From positions 1-45,970 of IMG/VR virus record IMGVR_UViG_2778261461_000002: a stretch of 45,970 nucleotides of DNA; one strand, written 5' to 3'. Position numbers and translations under genes: made by a program. The notes beneath the pieces are model-generated. The model did not search any database, was not told where the DNA came from, and saw only the letters and a list, made by a program, of their open reading frames with translations. The stretch is from a virus (Duplodnaviria > Heunggongvirae > Uroviricota > Caudoviricetes). Positions 28,099 through 34,643 of the stretch are shown piece by piece. How positions within the stretch are numbered: position 1 is the first letter of the stretch; each line of letters opens with the position of its first letter.

Positions 28099-28788
28099 TT
28101 AATTGACTTTTGCAACACCCTGCTGCGAAAAAGCTGCTTTTTGTTGTGATCGTGTTCTCACTGCTCGCAGTAAAGCATCACTATCAAGTCGCTCAAATAT
28201 GGCACACATGGCATTCCAGTAGTCGGCGTAGTTATGGCTCCAGTTATCCGGTTTCACCCCGCATAACTCAGCCAGTTCCTGCTTCTGGTGTGTTTCCCGC
28301 CCGGCCAGCTCAGCTTTAACATCCTGCGCCGCCAGCCAGATTAACGCCTTCAGCCTGTCCATGGTCTTGCCGGCCACCTTCCGGGTTCCCAGTTGCTCCC
28401 TGAACTGGGCCCATGCCCACTGAGTGATCGCCACCTGGTTCTCCCAGCGCACATTCTCGCTGTAGTTCCAGAGTAGCCACGCTTTCTGGTGCTCATCCAG
28501 CGACAGCACTGCGCGACGCCACGACGCGGTGGAGTATTCGACCGGCTGAACCAGAGGAATGTGCGACCCCTTAGCGCGGGACTGCTGCCCGGGGATCGGC
28601 GGATTGCTCGGGTTAACCAGCTTCCCGTTCGCCGGGTTAATCACTTTCACGCGAGAACGGCTGCGCGGAGTGGCAGTGAACATGGCGTTTTCGGCAAAGG
28701 CGACCAGTTGTCCTTTAGTTGCCCCACTCAGATCGGCAGTCGCAACCATCAGCTGCTGGCGTACAAATTCCAGGTATTGTGTGTTCAC
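28099..28788 (-). CDS. late-gene antiterminator Q-like protein (positional)
   Basis: 229 aa; located between NinG and the terminator/lysis cassette; no sequence match to lambda Q recalled. Confidence 0.4.
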   Translation of the reverse strand: MNTQYLEFVRQQLMVATADLSGATKGQLVAFAENAMFTATPRSRSRVKVINPANGKLVNPSNPPIPGQQSRAKGSHIPLVQPVEYSTASWRRAVLSLDEHQKAWLLWNYSENVRWENQVAITQWAWAQFREQLGTRKVAGKTMDRLKALIWLAAQDVKAELAGRETHQKQELAELCGVKPDNWSHNYADYWNAMCAIFERLDSDALLRAVRTRSQQKAAFSQQGVAKVN

Positions 28789-28903: not shown

Positions 28904-29509
28904 TCATGCTGCCTCCTGCTGTTTGAGGGCGCGAAGTTTCGCCCTGGCGTCAGCGCGGATGCCGTCCAGTTCTTCGCGGGTGTAACGGTGGGTTTCGTTA
29001 TTGGATTCGAGCGCCTGCACTTTCTCTTCGCCGATCAGCTCAACCAGCGCAGCTCTGTAGGCCTCGATATTTCCTGACTTGTGAACGTTGCAAGCTGAGC
29101 ACTGCAGCCAGATATTGTCCGGGTTGAAGCGGAGCTGCGGGGCGGCGGCCGTGGTGCGGTAGTGACCAGCATGCCATGCAAAGGCGGCCTTTGTTCCACA
29201 TGAGATGCAGCCATACCCGGCAGCCAGCAGCATAGTGCGCCGCCAGTCGTTTACAGCACGCTGGGTCATCTGCATCCAGTGGCTGAGTGGCTTAACTGCC
29301 CGGCGTCGTTCTGCGTGACTCCGGCGCGATTCCTGCTCTTTCCGGCGCTCATCCTTGATGCGCCTGGCCGCCTCTTTCACCTTCTCCTTGGCACGCAACT
29401 CCAGCGCGTAGATAGCGCCGTGAGCCGGGCAGCACCAACGGACGTTGTCGTATTGCGGGATAAACCACTCGTTGCATACCTTGCACTTGCGGCGGGCTGG
29501 CTTACGCAT
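28904..29509 (-). CDS. ninG: NinG/Rap recombination-associated protein
   Basis: shares Cys motifs and the block DAGHYRTTAAAPQLRFNxxNI / CxxCNxHKSGN with lambda NinG; start adjusted to 29509. Confidence 0.8.
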   Translation of the reverse strand: MRKPARRKCKVCNEWFIPQYDNVRWCCPAHGAIYALELRAKEKVKEAARRIKDERRKEQESRRSHAERRRAVKPLSHWMQMTQRAVNDWRRTMLLAAGYGCISCGTKAAFAWHAGHYRTTAAAPQLRFNPDNIWLQCSACNVHKSGNIEAYRAALVELIGEEKVQALESNNETHRYTREELDGIRADARAKLRALKQQEAA

Positions 29510-29951
29510 TGCGATCACCCCACTGCTTGGCCCACTCAATTTCGAGGCGGGACTTGTCGCTGAATTTGACGTTCTGCTGTGTGCCGAACCAGTAGATAGC
29601 CTCGATGACCTCTACCATCTGGCGCACCGTCATCTTGCTGGTACGTTGACCGAACATCACAATGCCGCCATCCAGACCGGGAGCCATTCGTTGCTCCTGC
29701 TTCTTGGACTTGGCGACCATCGCGGTTATCAAATCTTTCCAGTCGTCTGAGTCGTATTTGCTGCCGAACCAGAGAACCTGATCGGAGAGGTCTTTTAAAA
29801 GCGGCCATAATTTACGATTCTGCTGAGCAGTGCGCGTCATCTCTTTGATGTCTAGAATCAGCGGGCGCTTAGCGTCGACCGGCAGCTCACGGATGTAGTT
29901 GATGGCGTTCTGCTTTACGGATTCGTTTACGAGGTGGAATTGTTGCTTCAT
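29502..29951 (-). CDS. ninB: NinB (Orf-family recombination mediator)
   Basis: QNRKLW, KFSD and LEIEWAKQWGDR blocks match lambda NinB; start at internal Met 29951. Confidence 0.8.
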   Translation of the reverse strand: MKQQFHLVNESVKQNAINYIRELPVDAKRPLILDIKEMTRTAQQNRKLWPLLKDLSDQVLWFGSKYDSDDWKDLITAMVAKSKKQEQRMAPGLDGGIVMFGQRTSKMTVRQMVEVIEAIYWFGTQQNVKFSDKSRLEIEWAKQWGDRNA

Positions 29952-30130
29952 ACGCCACCTCCGAGAGGTAACGCAGAATGCAGAAAATCGCAGGTGCATT
30001 TCTGCATCTGTGACAAGGTGAGGAGTTCAGATTGTGGTCGCATTTAAGTCCCCTTAAATGCGCAGAAGTCACCGGAGTTGTTCAGGCTCCGATGACATGA
30101 TTATGGCGGGTTGATTTCAGAAAATCAAAG

Positions 30131-30610
30131 TTAACTTATGCCAAAATTCACATCTGTAAAACCCAGAAAATGAGCGTTAGGGTTCCACAACTGAATGACC
30201 TCAAGGCTCTCGGGGATTGAGCCTTTATTTTTAAAAGCTCCGTCTGGAGGGGAGCCGTGCTTGAACGTGGCTACGATGTGCTGGTTGAGTAAATCTAAAA
30301 AATATGTTCCAGCCTCTTCCCTGCTAATGCCATCGCTCTCTTTGATCCGTGCGACCATGTTTCTCGCGGTATCGATAGCGAACATAATGTTTGCAAACTC
30401 AGAGAAAGACCATTCTGAGCTTGTTTTCCCACTGCATGATGAATTTGCCCTTTCTGCTTGATAACTAAGCAGGTCTTGGATATTTCTTCGCCTTGACTCG
30501 ATTAGCGAAGCCTTTTGATAGACTAGCCCTCTCCATGTTATGAAAAGGCTCACGGAAGCTGCGATAGCTGATGCCACACCGGCTACGGCGCTCCATACCT
30601 CGGAAGTCAT
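30131..30610 (-). CDS. membrane-anchored hypothetical protein (159 aa)
   Basis: N-terminal hydrophobic helix VWSAVAGVASAIAASVSLFITW; AT-rich; ATGA-type overlap with upstream 85-aa gene. Confidence 0.45.
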   Translation of the reverse strand: MTSEVWSAVAGVASAIAASVSLFITWRGLVYQKASLIESRRRNIQDLLSYQAERANSSCSGKTSSEWSFSEFANIMFAIDTARNMVARIKESDGISREEAGTYFLDLLNQHIVATFKHGSPPDGAFKNKGSIPESLEVIQLWNPNAHFLGFTDVNFGIS

Positions 30611-30611
30611 G

Positions 30612-30869
30612 CTACTTTACCTCTTCATTCTTGATGTAACGTGGATTGCTTGCCTTAGGAAGTTTCAAACTCTCCTCCCGATAATGTCTCAACCGTTCAA
30701 GGAAATAATCTCGCAAATGCTCGGGCTGCTCGCGCATAACCACTTCGGCGATAACCGGCATGTTCAGCCGCTCTTTGTACGCCACGCCGGAGGCTGCAAG
30801 GTCAACGTTAACCTTGTCGCGTTCCTCTTGGCTCTTTGCAGCAATATTGAAGTCGTTCATAATCATCAA
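30612..30869 (-). CDS. hypothetical protein (85 aa)
   Basis: ORF track; coupled to downstream membrane protein gene. Confidence 0.4.
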
Positions 30870-31151
30870 CTCATTCGTTTTAATAGAACGTATCTTACGT
30901 CAGATAACCGCTGCTGAGACCAATTATGCGCGCAAAGATCCATCGTTACTGCTCATGGATATTTTTTATCGTACTTTTCCTGTTCCTGTTTGCTCTCTAT
31001 CAGAAAGCGTACTTGGGTGTCGCCCTCAATCAAATTATCATTGCAACGCTTGCCGTTACTGGTTTTCTCGGTTGGATTACGAGAGAAAAGCATCCCAAGA
31101 ATTGAGTAAATGGCCACTATGAAGTGGCCGGCTCATCGTAAAAATTAGCGT

Positions 31152-31559
31152 TCAAATGCCATCGGCACCCTGAAGCATGGCGGCGCGGATGTTTTGCGCG
31201 TATTCATGAGCAGCGTTTGAAGCCTTACTCTGCCACCCATCTGGATAATCACCAGACTTAATAGATTCTGCCGCCATAAATTCAGCAAACTGCTCGAGCA
31301 AATCAGGCACAGATACCAGCGCTGGAGGGGCGGTGTAAAGCGGCGTTACTTCTCGCAGCGGGTCGGCATAAGCATTGCCACTATCGAAGCTGACGTTGTT
31401 TTTTGCGCCGCCGCCTGACAGTAGCCACGCCACAGGCTCCGCTTCGAGCGATGCCAGCGCGATACGCGCCATCGCCGAAGCCTCACCACATTGAACGTGG
31501 TCAGTTTCGATAATTTGCTGCAACTGCTCTTTGGTGAATTCTTTGGTAATTGTGCTCAT
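31152..31559 (-). CDS. hypothetical protein (135 aa)
   Basis: ORF track; nin-region position. Confidence 0.35.
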   Translation of the reverse strand: MSTITKEFTKEQLQQIIETDHVQCGEASAMARIALASLEAEPVAWLLSGGGAKNNVSFDSGNAYADPLREVTPLYTAPPALVSVPDLLEQFAEFMAAESIKSGDYPDGWQSKASNAAHEYAQNIRAAMLQGADGI

Positions 31560-31927
31560 GGGTTACTCCATTCATCTTCAATCGCTACGCCAAGGCGATG
31601 CAGCCAGTCAGCCAGTTTCAACATTGATTCCCTGTCGCTTAGTCCGCTGGGAAAATCGTCCAATGCGACAACTGGTTTGAATGCGCCAAAACGGTCGCGC
31701 TCAACGGTAATGTATTGCTCCAGGGTTGTACCGCTAACGCTGGATGAATGCCTGACGAGATACTTTGAAAGTCGCTCCCGCTCCTTCGGGTCATATTTGT
31801 ACTCAACAAGCGTCATACTGCTGCGCCGGGAATCTATGCCGAGTAAGTCGAGCAAGTTAGCCATATCACTCTCCTTTACCGGCTGCGGCTCGGTCGATGC
31901 GTTCAATTTCAGCCAGAATAAGTGCAC
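31556..31927 (-). CDS. hypothetical protein (123 aa; start uncertain)
   Basis: ORF track; overlaps upstream Ea22-like gene end. Confidence 0.3.
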   Translation of the reverse strand: MHLFWLKLNASTEPQPVKESDMANLLDLLGIDSRRSSMTLVEYKYDPKERERLSKYLVRHSSSVSGTTLEQYITVERDRFGAFKPVVALDDFPSGLSDRESMLKLADWLHRLGVAIEDEWSNP

Positions 31928-32884: not shown

Positions 32885-33207
32885 ACCATCAATACCCTTC
32901 TCATCGCCGGACTGTTTCGGTACTCCTGGCAGATCACGTTTGTCTCTGTGCGCTGCACCAGCTTCGAATTACCCTTCGGCATGGCAGGTATGGTTTCCGG
33001 TGCGTATTTCATTCCGTAGCTGGTCAGCCGATACAGCCGCTGGCCATGCTTACCTTTGAACTCGATCAGGCCGTCTGCAAACAACGTACTTAACGGGCCG
33101 GAAATCTTTTTGGTGGTCATGCCGATCATCCTGGCAATGAAAGCACTATTCAGGCCCGGGTTATTACGCAGGGCTGCAAGAATCTGCCCACGAATTGTTA
33201 TGGTCAT
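32863..33207 (-). CDS. hypothetical protein, possible winged-helix DNA-binding (114 aa)
   Basis: ORF track; directly downstream of helicase gene. Confidence 0.3.
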   Translation of the reverse strand: MTITIRGQILAALRNNPGLNSAFIARMIGMTTKKISGPLSTLFADGLIEFKGKHGQRLYRLTSYGMKYAPETIPAMPKGNSKLVQRTETNVICQEYRNSPAMRRVLMVWGRVGV

Positions 33208-34643
33208 CAGAACCCCCCTTTCTTTTTCGGCTGCTGCTCACGCCCGCGGCGTTCTGCGGCGGCGGCCTGCTGGTCTGTGTCGTAAATTGACCCGTTGTTC
33301 TGATTGCAATAAACCGTTCCGGTACTGCCGTGGCGGTTGAGTCTCAGGATTAACTCGGTTTCTCCCGGCGGCACGCTGTCATCGAAAGCACCTTCCCGGT
33401 GGATGCCAACCCAGTAGTCGCAGTCCTGTTCAATCTGTCCTGTGTCCCGGGAATCGCTCGGCAACGGGCGTTTATTCACTCGCTTCTCCAGTTCGCGGTT
33501 GAGCTGGGTCAGCAGCACGACGACGCAGCCAAGCTCTTTGGCGAGATTCTTCAGACCTTTGGTGATCATCCCGTAGGCCAGGTCATTACGGTCGGCTTTT
33601 TCGGCGGTCATTAGAGTCAGGTAGTCAACCAGAATCATTCCTACGCAGCCCTTCTCGCGCTTGATTCGGCGGCTTTCGCTAACGATGTGCGCCAGTGACA
33701 GGCCAGGAGTATCGTCGATGTACAGCATGTCGATTTCACTCAATCGCCCGGCGGTGGCGATCGCCTTCTTAAAGTCGCCGTCGTAATCGCCCTGGTACTG
33801 GTCATCGGCGTCATCCGTGGCTGGCATGTAAAAAATGCTCGGGTTAACTCCAGACTTCTGACCAACCAGTTTTTCGAGGATCTGGTCGCCCGGCATTTCG
33901 AGGCTGAACATCAGCGCTGGCTTTTTCTCACGAACCGCGCAGTTGATCGCCATCTGACCGTACAGGGTTGTCTTGCCCATCTTTGGCCTTGCGCCAATCA
34001 CGAACAGAGAGCCTTTAACCAGACCTTTCGGCGCCAGCAGCCTGTCGAGTGAAGGTATGCCGGTACTCATGCCGCGCTGTTCGCCTGAAGGGTCAAACCG
34101 TTTCTCCAGATCTGCTACCCAGTCATCCATAACCTCGCCAAACGATCTCAACCCACGGCGACTACCGGTTTTTGAATGGTCTGCGAGCTGGGTGAAAATA
34201 CCCTGAATGGCCTCGTACTTCTGCGTAGCGCTCATGCCGTTACGGGAATACAGCAGCTCAGTAGCTTCGGTCAGGCGGTTGATACCGTAGCGCTCCATTG
34301 CGGCTTCCCGGACTGATGCTGCGTAAGCTACGATGTTTGCAGCGCTGGGAGTGTTCTTGGCGATCTCCGCAAGGTAAGCAAAGCCACCCACCTGCTCAGC
34401 GAGCCCTTTGCCTTCGAGCGCGTCGAACAATGTCAGACCATCGACTGGCTTGTTGTCGCGGAACATCTGGCGCATCTCGGCAAAGATCAGCTGGTGAGGT
34501 CGGCTGTAGAACGACTCAGGCTTGAGCATCGCCAGAACCTTCTGGACTCGCTCGCTGTTGTCATCATCCAGCAGCAGGCCACCGATAACGCTCTGCTCTG
34601 CTTCGAGGTTTTGTGGTACAGCCATGAAATCAGCGGTCATCAC
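33207..34643 (-). CDS. DnaB-family replicative helicase
   Basis: 478 aa; Walker A GARPKMGKT, N-terminal DnaB-like domain (LEAEQSVIGGLLLD); replaces lambda P position. Confidence 0.85.
   Translation of the reverse strand: MMTADFMAVPQNLEAEQSVIGGLLLDDDNSERVQKVLAMLKPESFYSRPHQLIFAEMRQMFRDNKPVDGLTLFDALEGKGLAEQVGGFAYLAEIAKNTPSAANIVAYAASVREAAMERYGINRLTEATELLYSRNGMSATQKYEAIQGIFTQLADHSKTGSRRGLRSFGEVMDDWVADLEKRFDPSGEQRGMSTGIPSLDRLLAPKGLVKGSLFVIGARPKMGKTTLYGQMAINCAVREKKPALMFSLEMPGDQILEKLVGQKSGVNPSIFYMPATDDADDQYQGDYDGDFKKAIATAGRLSEIDMLYIDDTPGLSLAHIVSESRRIKREKGCVGMILVDYLTLMTAEKADRNDLAYGMITKGLKNLAKELGCVVVLLTQLNRELEKRVNKRPLPSDSRDTGQIEQDCDYWVGIHREGAFDDSVPPGETELILRLNRHGSTGTVYCNQNNGSIYDTDQQAAAAERRGREQQPKKKGGF

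What the first reader, a model, noticed from the sequence alone, without database searches (positions are those of the whole stretch)
30131..30869. Overlapping two-gene cassette in the nin region: 85-aa protein plus 159-aa N-terminally anchored membrane protein
The two ORFs overlap by their stop/start codons, are AT-rich relative to NinB/NinG and the replication genes, and are separated from NinB by an untranslated stretch. A small soluble protein coupled to a single-pass membrane protein is a common architecture for toxin-antitoxin-like or exclusion modules; the nin region is a known site of accessory gene exchange in lambdoid phages.
Basis: inference. Interest (0 to 1): 0.5.

Follow-up and report, generated by a model that had tools for sequence, protein, structure and literature searches.

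The report
Phage Hot/theta gene plus membrane-anchored partner
The small gene is a prophage copy of a known DNA polymerase III theta-subunit homologue (phage P1 Hot), not an antitoxin, and the gene after it belongs to a rare family of membrane-anchored proteins of unknown function that stays intact even where the theta gene has decayed.

Summary
Both ORFs are real genes on the minus strand of a lambdoid prophage, in the variable slot just upstream of ninB. They do not overlap: the arrangement is TAG, one base, ATG.

- **The 85-aa ORF.** More likely 82 aa, from the ATG at 30860. It is 78% identical to phage P1 Hot and matches Pfam DNA_pol3_theta at E 5e-35, so it is a known protein that binds the proofreading subunit epsilon.
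- **The 159-aa ORF ("X").** It has one N-terminal transmembrane helix and a confidently modelled all-helical domain predicted to face the cytoplasm. It belongs to phrog_1779, a rare family: 32 representatives among 1.84 billion proteins. It has no Pfam or PADLOC match and no informative fold match.
- **Linkage.** In 9 of 13 X lineages (some sharing only 25% identity) a theta gene or a remnant of one lies directly upstream of X. At least seven different lesions have destroyed theta while X stays under purifying selection (dN/dS 0.08-0.4). The 3' end of theta, which carries the ribosome-binding site for X, always survives.
- **Theta without X.** Theta also occurs with other downstream genes or with none.

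An obligate toxin-antitoxin pair is therefore not supported. The best reading is a mosaic accessory block made of hot plus an independently selected membrane protein. An exclusion or host-interaction role for X is plausible but untested. Interest is modest.

The parts
30612..30860 (-). hot-like gene: an 82-aa homologue of the DNA polymerase III theta subunit and of phage P1 Hot. The mechanical ORF extends to a TTG at 30869, giving 85 aa.
   Evidence: Pfam PF06440 at E 5.4e-35, 119.4 bits against a cut-off of 34.6. phrog_1105 at 2e-38. PDB 1se7/2ido Hot at E 6.6e-37, with query residues 4-85 aligned to Hot 1-82, and E. coli theta 1du2 at 8.9e-21. RefSeq annotates 'DNA polymerase III subunit theta' (249-nt CDS) in the copy in E. 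coli MB20, 99.9% identical over 30000-31200.
30131..30610 (-). Gene X: a 159-aa single-pass protein of uncharacterised family phrog_1779, with an N-terminal anchor and an all-helical domain predicted to face the cytoplasm.
   Evidence: phrog_1779 at E 6.8e-16, with no Pfam or PADLOC hit. There are 17 clusters at 90% identity, and 32 representatives among 1.84e9 proteins. The AF2 model has pLDDT 88.6 and pTM 0.75, with helix 3-59 followed by four or five further helices. Hydropathy and the positive-inside rule support the topology. dN/dS is 0.08-0.18.
30619..30625 (-). Shine-Dalgarno-like AAGAGGT for X, lying inside the last codons of the theta gene (..NEEVK). It sits 8 nt before the X ATG. The stop and start read TAG-C-ATG.
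   Evidence: Read directly from the sequence. The 3' end of theta is the part retained in every decayed copy.
29952..30130 (-). Conserved ninB leader between X and ninB. It contains a perfect 10-bp inverted repeat at 30039-30062, a second inverted repeat at 29978-30007, and a promoter-like TTGATT-17-CATAAT at 30128-30100.
   Evidence: 82-98% identical to HK639, phage 82, phi80 and many other lambdoid phages, and present in 2215 of 5426 E. coli genomes. Phage 82 annotates putative -35 and -10 signals and a 'possible regulator-binding site', and phi80 annotates IR4. The promoter scan as a whole is not above chance.
29972..30854 (-). Mosaic block (theta + X + ninB leader) shared as a unit with related prophages.
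   Evidence: blastn of window 29500-31600 against all fetched loci shows recurrent end points at 29948-29972 and 30817-30854.
31112..31129 (-). G+C-rich hairpin (GGCCACT-tcat-AGTGGCC) directly after the upstream gene 31152-31559. It is a possible tR2-like terminator ahead of the AT-rich spacer and theta.
   Evidence: Inverted repeat I12. It falls below the T-run threshold of the terminator scan. HK639 has an annotated terminator at the equivalent place, between its gene 59 and its theta gene. Function is inferred.

Best explanation
The finding is a mosaic accessory block in the variable slot between the replication/ead genes and ninB of a lambdoid prophage. It holds two genes whose functions are separable.

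**Gene 1, a Hot orthologue.** Identity to P1 Hot and E. coli theta is shown here. From what is established for those proteins, it should bind the exonuclease domain of the host proofreading subunit epsilon (DnaQ) and stabilise it while the phage replicates with host Pol III. It is redundant with the host holE gene.

**Gene 2, X.** This is a non-enzymatic protein anchored in the inner membrane.
- One N-terminal transmembrane helix is rich in conserved small residues (A15, A18, S21).
- That helix continues as a long stalk into a helical bundle predicted to face the cytoplasm.
- No conserved catalytic residues are present.
- X is probably translated by coupling to the end of the upstream ORF, because its ribosome-binding site lies inside the last theta codons.

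**What selection keeps.** X is the part that selection maintains. Theta repeatedly decays to a pseudogene or to a 35-51-aa leader, while X remains under purifying selection.

**Most likely role of X (inference, about 0.35).** X acts by protein-protein contacts at the cytoplasmic face of the membrane, either in superinfection exclusion or abortive infection or in some other host-interaction role. Its biochemical activity is not known.

The pair is not a toxin-antitoxin system.

The confidence of 0.6 is for the composite: Hot identity about 0.95, X as independently selected membrane-anchored cargo about 0.7, and not a TA pair about 0.9.
For: **Hot identity.**: 78% identity to P1 Hot over all 82 residues. 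PMC2528190 and PMC7556043 report that Hot binds epsilon186, substitutes for theta and is expressed in both lysogeny and lytic growth.

**Slot variability.** Theta is followed by X in the window, MB20, M37H, L004 and L019-23. It is followed by an unrelated 194-aa protein in YPE10, by a 73-aa soluble protein in HK639, by small ORFs in RothD, and by nothing in Klebsiella phage 2b.

**X without theta.** E. coli-type loci L012-14, L045 and L047, and P1-like plasmids.

**Theta decay with X intact.**
- L007-10: premature stop plus frameshift.
- L011: multiple stops.
- L024-28 and L030: only a 51-aa 3' remnant.
- L032: only about 24 codons remain.
- L033 and L036: frameshifts.
- L015 and L046: a conserved 35-aa internally deleted ORF that overlaps the X start by ATGA.

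**Purifying selection on X.** dN/dS is 0.076 for L011 against L036 and 0.175 for L007 against L032, and theta is dead in all four. pN is far below pS in every clade.

**Membrane anchoring.** Hydropathy and charge bias, the AF2 model, and a natural fusion of X to a 3-TM domain (P0018 / L034) that occurs as two overlapping genes in L035.

**No catalytic signature.** The nearly invariant residues across 42 members are A15, A18, S21, Q32, L48, N56, W67, A82, F104, L108, P122 and W142.
Against: - Linkage of theta (or its remnant) and X persists down to 25% X identity and across two different prophage regions: before ninB, and near int/exc in Pantoea, Tatumella and Rosenbergiella. This could reflect a functional tie rather than mere physical linkage.
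- An unrelated family, Y, has the same N-anchored architecture. It also sits behind theta or theta remnants.
- No promoter above chance was found in front of the block. Expression in the lysogen, which a defence role would need, is therefore unsupported.
- No homology or fold match ties X to any known exclusion or abortive-infection protein.
- Frameshifts seen in single assemblies (L033, L036) could be sequencing errors. The lesions in L007-10, L024-28 and L015/L046 recur in independent assemblies.
Confidence: 0.6

Rival explanations
1. Hot and X work together. X tethers or sequesters Hot, and through it the host epsilon subunit or Pol III core, at the inner membrane. This would localise or modulate phage replication or proofreading. 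Where theta has decayed, host theta could stand in for it.
For: - In 9 of 13 X lineages, theta or a theta remnant lies immediately 5' of X, even though theta occurs in only 36 of 50,697 phage records.
- The pairing is kept at 25% X identity in a different prophage region (L017).
- In L004 two X paralogues flank theta.
- In P1-like phage-plasmids an X homologue lies upstream of phd-doc, where P1 itself carries hot-lxr-humD.
Against: - Repeated, independent loss of theta while X stays under purifying selection.
- The large E. coli clade of X, present in 181 of 5426 genomes, has no trace of theta.
- Theta occurs with unrelated partners or alone.
- No direct evidence of interaction exists, and no complex prediction was possible with these tools.
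Confidence: 0.12
2. One reading: a toxin-antitoxin-like or two-component exclusion cassette. The membrane protein would be the toxin or effector, and the small soluble protein its antidote or regulator.
For: The architecture fits: a small soluble gene tightly coupled (1-nt gap) to a gene for a membrane-anchored protein, with low G+C and an accessory location. The same slot holds defence-type genes in other prophages: AAA_21+RloB in L043, SNIPE in L012 and a NYN-domain gene in L024.
Against: - The small protein is a full-length theta/Hot homologue.
- There are no PADLOC or Pfam toxin or antitoxin hits for either protein, nor for any of 42 X members.
- X is intact without a functional upstream partner in at least seven lineages, and with no partner at all in E. 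coli.
- The partner occurs without X.
Confidence: 0.04
3. X is a lytic-cycle (delayed-early) phage function unrelated to defence. It could, for example, modulate a host inner-membrane protein such as a protease, the division machinery or transport. It would be transcribed by N-antiterminated read-through from pR like the other nin genes, and hot would simply be its upstream neighbour.
For: - X has the same orientation as the early right operon and is tightly packed with it.
- No separate promoter was detected.
- A hairpin lies upstream, as for tR2-type terminators in nin regions.
- The conserved small-residue transmembrane motif suggests helix-helix packing with a membrane partner.
- In one clade a dedicated 3-TM partner is fused or adjacent.
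Against: X is retained intact in many prophages whose neighbouring gene has decayed, a pattern more typical of genes useful to the lysogen. X is absent from nearly all sequenced lambdoid phages: there are no tblastn hits for the window type among 50,697 phage records and only two for the E. coli type. It is therefore dispensable for lytic growth.
Confidence: 0.2

Closest known systems
Bacteriophage P1 Hot (homologue of theta; PDB 1SE7, and 2IDO in complex with epsilon186)
   Same: 78% identity over the whole 82 residues and the same Pfam family, PF06440. It is a phage-borne copy of a host replisome accessory subunit.
   Different: P1 hot lies behind a late promoter, next to lxr/humD/phd-doc, and is followed by a gene on the opposite strand. 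In the window the gene sits in the slot before ninB of a lambdoid prophage and is followed 1 nt later by X.
[quoted passage not shown]
   Same: The same fold family. E is 8.9e-21 over residues 8-72.
   Different: HolE is a chromosomal housekeeping gene of 76 aa. The window protein is closer to Hot and carries the Hot-type C-terminal extension (..[15 protein letters not shown]).
Theta genes of lambdoid phages HK639 (gp60), vB_EclS_CobraSix, Klebsiella RothC/D and Klebsiella phage 2b
   Same: The same gene in the same position, immediately upstream of the ninB leader and preceded by a terminator and a spacer.
   Different: None of them has X downstream. HK639 has a 73-aa soluble protein, RothD has small ORFs, and phage 2b has nothing.
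PHROG family phrog_1779 (unknown function), including the E. coli 169-aa proteins WP_032311209 / A0A0P7PYM6 and the copies in phages PhiR26_1 and PhiR5_1
   Same: X matches the family at E 6.8e-16. It has the same length, the same N-terminal Ala-rich helix and the same RAN / W.F..AN / PPD motifs.
   Different: The window clade is only about 27% identical to the core of the family. It lacks the acidic [ST]D.DL.D C-terminus and is linked to theta, which the E. coli clade is not.
Morons and accessory hotspots of temperate phages (HK97/HK022 morons; P2/P4 defence hotspots, PMC9122126)
   Same: A low-G+C insert bounded by conserved sequence, with presence/absence and cargo polymorphism among relatives. 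Defence-type genes occupy the same slot in other prophages.
   Different: No promoter or terminator of its own was demonstrated. No defence phenotype or homology is known for X.
Membrane-anchored prophage exclusion or abortive-infection proteins (for example P22/lambda SieB, lambda RexB, HK97 gp15). These are recalled from general knowledge and were not compared here.
   Same: They are small prophage-encoded inner-membrane proteins in accessory positions.
   Different: No sequence or fold similarity to any PADLOC model or solved structure was detected. Topology and location in the genome differ. This is resemblance by analogy only.

Membership tests
DNA_pol3_theta / Hot (PF06440) | Full-length match to the family profile above the curated threshold | tested here: met
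   119.4 bits against a gathering score of 34.6, covering profile positions 2-68 of 70. phrog_1105 at 2e-38.
DNA_pol3_theta / Hot (PF06440) | Close similarity to experimentally solved members (Hot, theta) | tested here: met
   1se7/2ido Hot at E 6.6e-37, end to end. 1du2 theta at E 8.9e-21. 78% identity to P1 hot by tblastn.
DNA_pol3_theta / Hot (PF06440) | Binds and stabilises the epsilon (DnaQ) exonuclease domain | not testable with these tools
   Inferred from the literature on Hot and theta (PMC2528190; PMC7556043). It needs a binding or dnaQ49-suppression assay.
Type II toxin-antitoxin pair | The upstream small protein belongs to an antitoxin family or fold | tested here: not met
   It is a theta/Hot homologue and has no other Pfam hit. 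It has no PADLOC hit.
Type II toxin-antitoxin pair | The downstream protein belongs to a toxin family | tested here: not met
   No Pfam or PADLOC hit for X or for any of 42 family members. No fold relative was found.
Type II toxin-antitoxin pair | Obligate co-occurrence: an intact toxin is always accompanied by an intact antitoxin | tested here: not met
   X is intact with theta destroyed in L007-11, L024-28, L032, L033, L036, L015 and L046. X occurs with no theta in L012-14, L045, L047, L048 and L049.
Type II toxin-antitoxin pair | The toxin inhibits growth and is neutralised by its partner | not testable with these tools
   Needs expression experiments.
PHROG phrog_1779 (X family) | Significant profile match over most of the length | tested here: met
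   E 6.8e-16, with residues 4-150 aligned to profile positions 8-155 of 169. A profile search of 1.84e9 proteins recovers the same set.
Prophage superinfection-exclusion / abortive-infection proteins | Homology to a described defence protein | tested here: not met
   PADLOC gave 0 families for X and no consistent hit among 42 members.
Prophage superinfection-exclusion / abortive-infection proteins | Located in the membrane | tested here: inconclusive
   Predicted only. The Kyte-Doolittle maximum is 1.83 and there is a positive-inside bias. A natural fusion to a 3-TM domain exists. There is no experimental localisation.
Prophage superinfection-exclusion / abortive-infection proteins | Expressed from the repressed prophage and protects against other phages | not testable with these tools
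   The promoter scan is not above chance. Needs RNA-seq and phage challenge.
Moron / accessory cargo of a lambdoid hotspot | Base composition different from the flanking core genes | tested here: met
   G+C is 0.42-0.49 in the block against 0.52-0.60 in the flanks.
Moron / accessory cargo of a lambdoid hotspot | Present, absent or replaced among otherwise related phages, with conserved boundaries | tested here: met
   The block is 29972-30854 with recurrent end points. Alternative cargo occupies the same slot.
Moron / accessory cargo of a lambdoid hotspot | Own promoter and terminator | tested here: inconclusive
   No promoter-like site lies upstream of theta on the minus strand. The counts equal those of shuffled sequence. 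Hairpins occur at 31112-31129 and 29978-30007.

The most novel reading that the evidence does not exclude
The theta homologue and the N-anchored protein behind it would form a previously unrecognised functional module. The N-anchored protein is X, or the architecturally analogous but unrelated Y family. It would use Hot or theta as an adaptor to hold the host proofreading subunit or Pol III core at the inner membrane, or to sense it there. Examples would be an exclusion or abortive-infection switch that monitors replisome state, or a device that localises phage replication. Where the phage theta has decayed, host theta would take over. That would explain both the persistent linkage and the dispensability of the phage copy.
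Probability: 0.1. Interest if true: 0.65.

Novelty: new member of a known kind. Interest (0 to 1): 0.3.

Why it matters
The result corrects a plausible misreading: a small gene followed by a membrane-protein gene in a phage accessory slot looked like a toxin-antitoxin pair, but the small gene is a known replisome accessory homologue.

It also records two things not found in the literature held here.
- Hot/theta genes of lambdoid prophages recurrently sit in front of N-terminally anchored proteins.
- The theta copy is repeatedly lost, or shrunk to a short leader ORF for translational coupling, while the membrane protein is kept.

This marks X as the selected cargo and a reasonable candidate for functional screening. 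The X family is phrog_1779, and the related E. coli-type clade of it (not the window type, which is in 2 of 5426) is present in about 3% of complete E. coli genomes. If X proved to act on the replisome through theta, that would give the enigmatic theta/Hot proteins a first phage-specific role. On present evidence that is unlikely.

Tried and rejected
- **TA or defence homology.** PADLOC and Pfam scans of both proteins and of all 42 X members gave nothing consistent.
- **Remote homology between X and the alternative cargo Y.** BLASTP and hhalign (probability 0.75%) were negative, so the resemblance is architectural only.
- **The search for related loci.** Alignment A2 was too divergent to use. 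With A1, the genome-contig scan gave no confirmed locus and only viral contigs worked.
- **Promoter and terminator scan of 29800-31400.** Counts equalled those of shuffled sequence.
- **Rfam on 29800-31400.** No match.
- **Literature.** The two primary Chikova & Schaaper papers on Hot are not held. Hot function is therefore cited through PMC2528190 and PMC7556043. A search for defence hotspots near ninB in lambdoid phages found nothing specific to this slot or to X.
- **Rejected ideas.** X as a cleaved secreted protein was rejected because it has no positive n-region and a 21-residue hydrophobic span. X as a holin or spanin was rejected because it lies in the early region, far from the lysis cassette.
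Full report
**1. What is in the sequence**

The two ORFs are on the minus strand: 30612-30869 (85 aa from a TTG) and 30131-30610 (159 aa). Read on the minus strand, the junction is ...AAT GAA GAG GTA AAG TAG C ATG.... The genes are therefore separated by one base and do not overlap. A Shine-Dalgarno-like AAGAGGT (30625-30619) for the second gene lies inside the last codons of the first.

Both genes read in the same direction as the early-right operon of a lambdoid prophage. From upstream to downstream this operon contains:
- DnaB-like helicase, 33207-34643
- Ren-like winged-helix protein
- Ead/Ea22 family protein
- two proteins of unknown function
- the pair under study
- NinB, 29502-29951
- NinG
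- Q, 28099-28788

G+C is 0.463 for the 159-aa gene, 0.490 for the small gene and 0.419 for the spacer upstream. The flanks are richer: NinB 0.522, NinG 0.602, Q 0.565 and DnaB 0.562.

Window 30000-31200 is 99.9% identical to a prophage of E. coli MB20. There RefSeq annotates 'DNA polymerase III subunit theta' (249-nt CDS, 82 aa, ATG corresponding to window 30860) and 'hypothetical protein' WP_032671037.1. The exact 159-aa sequence occurs on 340 contigs, mostly from Enterobacter hormaechei.

**2. The small gene is a Hot/theta homologue**

- It matches Pfam PF06440 (DNA_pol3_theta) at E 5.4e-35, scoring 119 bits against a cut-off of 34.6. It also matches phrog_1105.
- Against solved structures, the best hit is phage P1 Hot (1se7; 2ido is its complex with epsilon186) at E 6.6e-37. 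Query residues 4-85 align with Hot residues 1-82.
- E. coli theta (1du2) follows at E 8.9e-21. tblastn gives 78% identity to P1 hot.
- According to PMC2528190 and PMC7556043, theta stabilises the proofreading subunit epsilon. Hot can substitute for theta, and P1 hot is expressed in both lysogeny and lytic growth.

The sequence gives no support to an antitoxin role for this protein.

**3. The 159-aa gene (X)**

*Family.* X has no Pfam or PADLOC hit. It matches phrog_1779 (unknown function) at E 6.8e-16. The family is small:
- 17 clusters at 90% identity among 5.8 billion sequences
- 32 representatives among 1.84 billion proteins in a profile search
- 42 proteins in a second profile search

All members are annotated as 'hypothetical protein'.

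*Sequence features.* Members are 150-175 aa long. Each has an N-terminal hydrophobic helix rich in Ala, Ser and Gly, followed by a basic stretch. The shared motifs are RAN, W.F..AN and PPD. The nearly invariant residues are A15, A18, S21, Q32, L48, N56, W67, A82, F104, L108, P122 and W142, so no catalytic constellation is present.

*Topology.* The Kyte-Doolittle maximum is 1.83 (residues 7-25). Residues 27-45 hold 5 K/R against 1 D/E, which predicts N-out/C-in topology.

*Structure.* With the 42-sequence alignment, AlphaFold2 gives pLDDT 88.6 and pTM 0.75. A helix spans residues 3-59, forming the transmembrane segment and a stalk, and packs against four or five shorter helices. Fold searches return only generic helical bundles:
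- Foldseek against PDB, best E 0.97
- Foldseek against BFVD, best E 0.26

*Support for a membrane location.* One clade has X fused to a domain with three predicted transmembrane helices (P0018, L034). The same two parts occur as overlapping separate genes in L035.

*Selection.* X is under purifying selection. dN/dS is 0.08-0.18 where synonymous sites are not saturated, and pN is far below pS in every clade.

**4. Is it a two-gene cassette?**

I collected 49 loci and searched each for theta by tblastn and by ORF inspection.

*Theta intact and directly upstream of X:*
- the window, MB20, M37H, L019-23 and L029
- the 61%-identical clade L004-6 and L031, where a second X paralogue lies upstream of theta
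- Pantoea ananatis L017/18, where X is only 25% identical, the genes overlap by ATGA, and the pair lies in a different prophage region next to Dam/Dcm methylases, exc and int

*Theta decayed directly upstream of an intact X:*
- Klebsiella L007-10: stop plus frameshift, identical in four assemblies
- Enterobacter ludwigii L011: several stops
- L024-28 and L030: only a 51-aa 3' remnant, behind a NYN-domain gene
- L032: only the last 24 or so codons
- L033 and L036: frameshifts
- Tatumella L015/16 and Rosenbergiella L046: a conserved 35-aa ORF made of the N- and C-terminal ends of theta, overlapping the X start by ATGA

*No trace of theta next to X:*
- the E. coli-type 169-aa clade (L012-14, L045, L047), present in 181 of 5426 complete E. 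coli genomes
- L035
- P1-like phage-plasmids L048/49
- In L034, theta lies 1.5 kb upstream.

*Theta without X.* Theta is rare in phages, occurring in 36 of 50,697 records. Where it occurs without X, it is followed by:
- an unrelated 194-aa protein ('Y', phrog_33426) in E. coli YPE10
- a 73-aa soluble protein in HK639
- small ORFs in RothD
- nothing in Klebsiella phage 2b
- an opposite-strand gene (lxr) in P1

*Conclusion for this section.* The two genes are often linked, but neither needs the other to be retained. X stays under purifying selection in pairs of loci where theta is dead: dN/dS is 0.076 for L011 against L036 and 0.175 for L007 against L032. That is the opposite of what an antitoxin-toxin pair predicts.

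The 3' end of theta, which holds the ribosome-binding site for X, is the part that always survives, and some ORF usually reads up to the X start. Inference: X translation is coupled to the upstream ORF, and in some lineages theta has been reduced to a leader.

**5. The slot**

blastn of window 29500-31600 against all loci shows a recurrent mosaic block, 29972-30854. It is bounded by the theta start and by the conserved leader of ninB.

That leader (29952-30130) is 82-98% identical to HK639, phage 82, phi80 and others, and is present in 2215 of 5426 E. coli genomes. Phage 82 annotates it as a putative promoter plus a 'possible regulator-binding site', and phi80 annotates it as IR4. In the window it contains a perfect 10-bp inverted repeat at 30039-30062.

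Upstream of theta there is an AT-rich spacer of about 290 nt, preceded by a G+C-rich hairpin (31112-31129) directly after the previous gene. HK639 has an annotated terminator at the same place.

The promoter/terminator scan is not above chance and Rfam finds nothing. Independent transcription of the block is therefore not shown.

In other prophages the same slot holds defence-type genes: AAA_21+RloB next to Y in L043, SNIPE near X in L012, and a NYN-domain gene in L024. It thus behaves as an accessory hotspot.

**6. An unexplained regularity**

Y has the same architecture as X: an N-terminal hydrophobic helix rich in Gly and Ala, a soluble domain, and an acidic C-terminus. No homology is detectable (hhalign probability 0.75%). 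In L043 and L044, Y also sits behind decayed theta remnants.

In P1-like phage-plasmids an X homologue lies directly upstream of phd-doc, where P1 carries hot-lxr-humD.

These observations keep open a functional tie between theta and N-anchored proteins, which I rate at about 0.1. They can equally be explained by cargo exchange between two conserved flanks: the 3' end of theta and the ninB leader.

**7. Verdict**

The TA-like interpretation is not supported.

The small gene is a new member of a known family (Hot/theta). Such genes are already annotated at the same position in lambdoid phages such as HK639. X is a member of a rare, uncharacterised PHROG family. Its function remains unknown.

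My best-supported mechanism for X is a non-enzymatic, membrane-tethered protein facing the cytoplasm, selected independently of theta, with an exclusion or host-interaction role at about 0.35 probability. I rate interest at 0.3. The patterns of theta decay and of the coupling leader are worth a note, and X and Y are reasonable candidates for a defence screen, but nothing here is very surprising to a specialist.

Noticed in passing
window 30926-31105 (+ strand): A 59-aa ORF on the opposite strand, inside the AT-rich spacer upstream of theta. It encodes two strongly hydrophobic segments (Kyte-Doolittle 19-residue maximum 2.09). It is identical in E. coli MB20 and YPE10 but not annotated there, and it has no significant Pfam or PHROG hit. 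It could be a small membrane-protein moron or a chance ORF.
   Followed up: partly
window 29952-30130, with inverted repeats at 30039-30062 and 29978-30007: The leader of ninB is a highly conserved element, present in 2215 of 5426 E. coli genomes and in many lambdoid phages. It has a perfect 10-bp palindrome and a promoter-like TTGATT-17-CATAAT. Phage 82 annotates a putative promoter and a regulator-binding site here, and phi80 annotates IR4. Its function appears unsettled, and it forms one boundary of the cargo slot.
   Followed up: partly
L015 4897-5004 (Tatumella) and L046 2897-3004 (Rosenbergiella): A conserved 35-aa 'mini-theta' ORF, formed by fusing the N- and C-terminal ends of theta after an internal deletion. 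It overlaps the start of X by ATGA. pN is 0.185 and pS 0.508 between the two genera. It looks like a replisome gene reduced to a translational-coupling leader.
   Followed up: partly
L004 3150-3662, 3730-3987 and 4001-4483: Two paralogues of the X family flank the theta gene, in the order X' (170 aa, acidic-tail type, phrog_1779 at E 1e-54), theta, then X (160 aa).
   Followed up: partly
L034 3581-4447 and L035 708-1633: X is fused to an N-terminal domain of about 140 aa with three predicted transmembrane helices (288 aa, P0018). In L035 the same two parts are separate genes overlapping by 4 nt. The extra domain has no Pfam or PHROG hit.
   Followed up: partly
L048 3435-3899 (E. albertii p06-3542) and L049 3357-3821 (E. 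coli pS51_2): P1-like phage-plasmids of 93-99 kb carry an X-family gene (154 aa, ending in ..SEADLED) immediately upstream of phd-doc. In P1 itself that position is occupied by hot-lxr-humD.
   Followed up: partly
L003 4379-4963, L043 3001-3576 and L044 3001-3573: The 194-aa 'Y' family (phrog_33426) occupies the same slot as X. It has an analogous N-terminal hydrophobic helix and an acidic C-terminus but no detectable homology to X. It also lies behind intact (YPE10) or decayed (L043, L044) theta genes. In L043 it sits next to an AAA_21+RloB pair and a DinI gene.
   Followed up: partly
Distant X-family members P0020-P0045 and L012 5001-5510: Most distant members end in a conserved acidic tail, [ST]D.DL.D, at the extreme C-terminus. 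In the window clade this is replaced by TDVNFGIS. It may be a docking or degradation motif, and I could match it to nothing known.
   Followed up: no
window 31152-31559 and 31556-31927: Two conserved early genes of unknown function lie upstream of the block (phrog_60/5117 and phrog_1258). RefSeq marks the first as a truncated pseudogene in MB20, although the window holds an intact 135-aa ORF.
   Followed up: no
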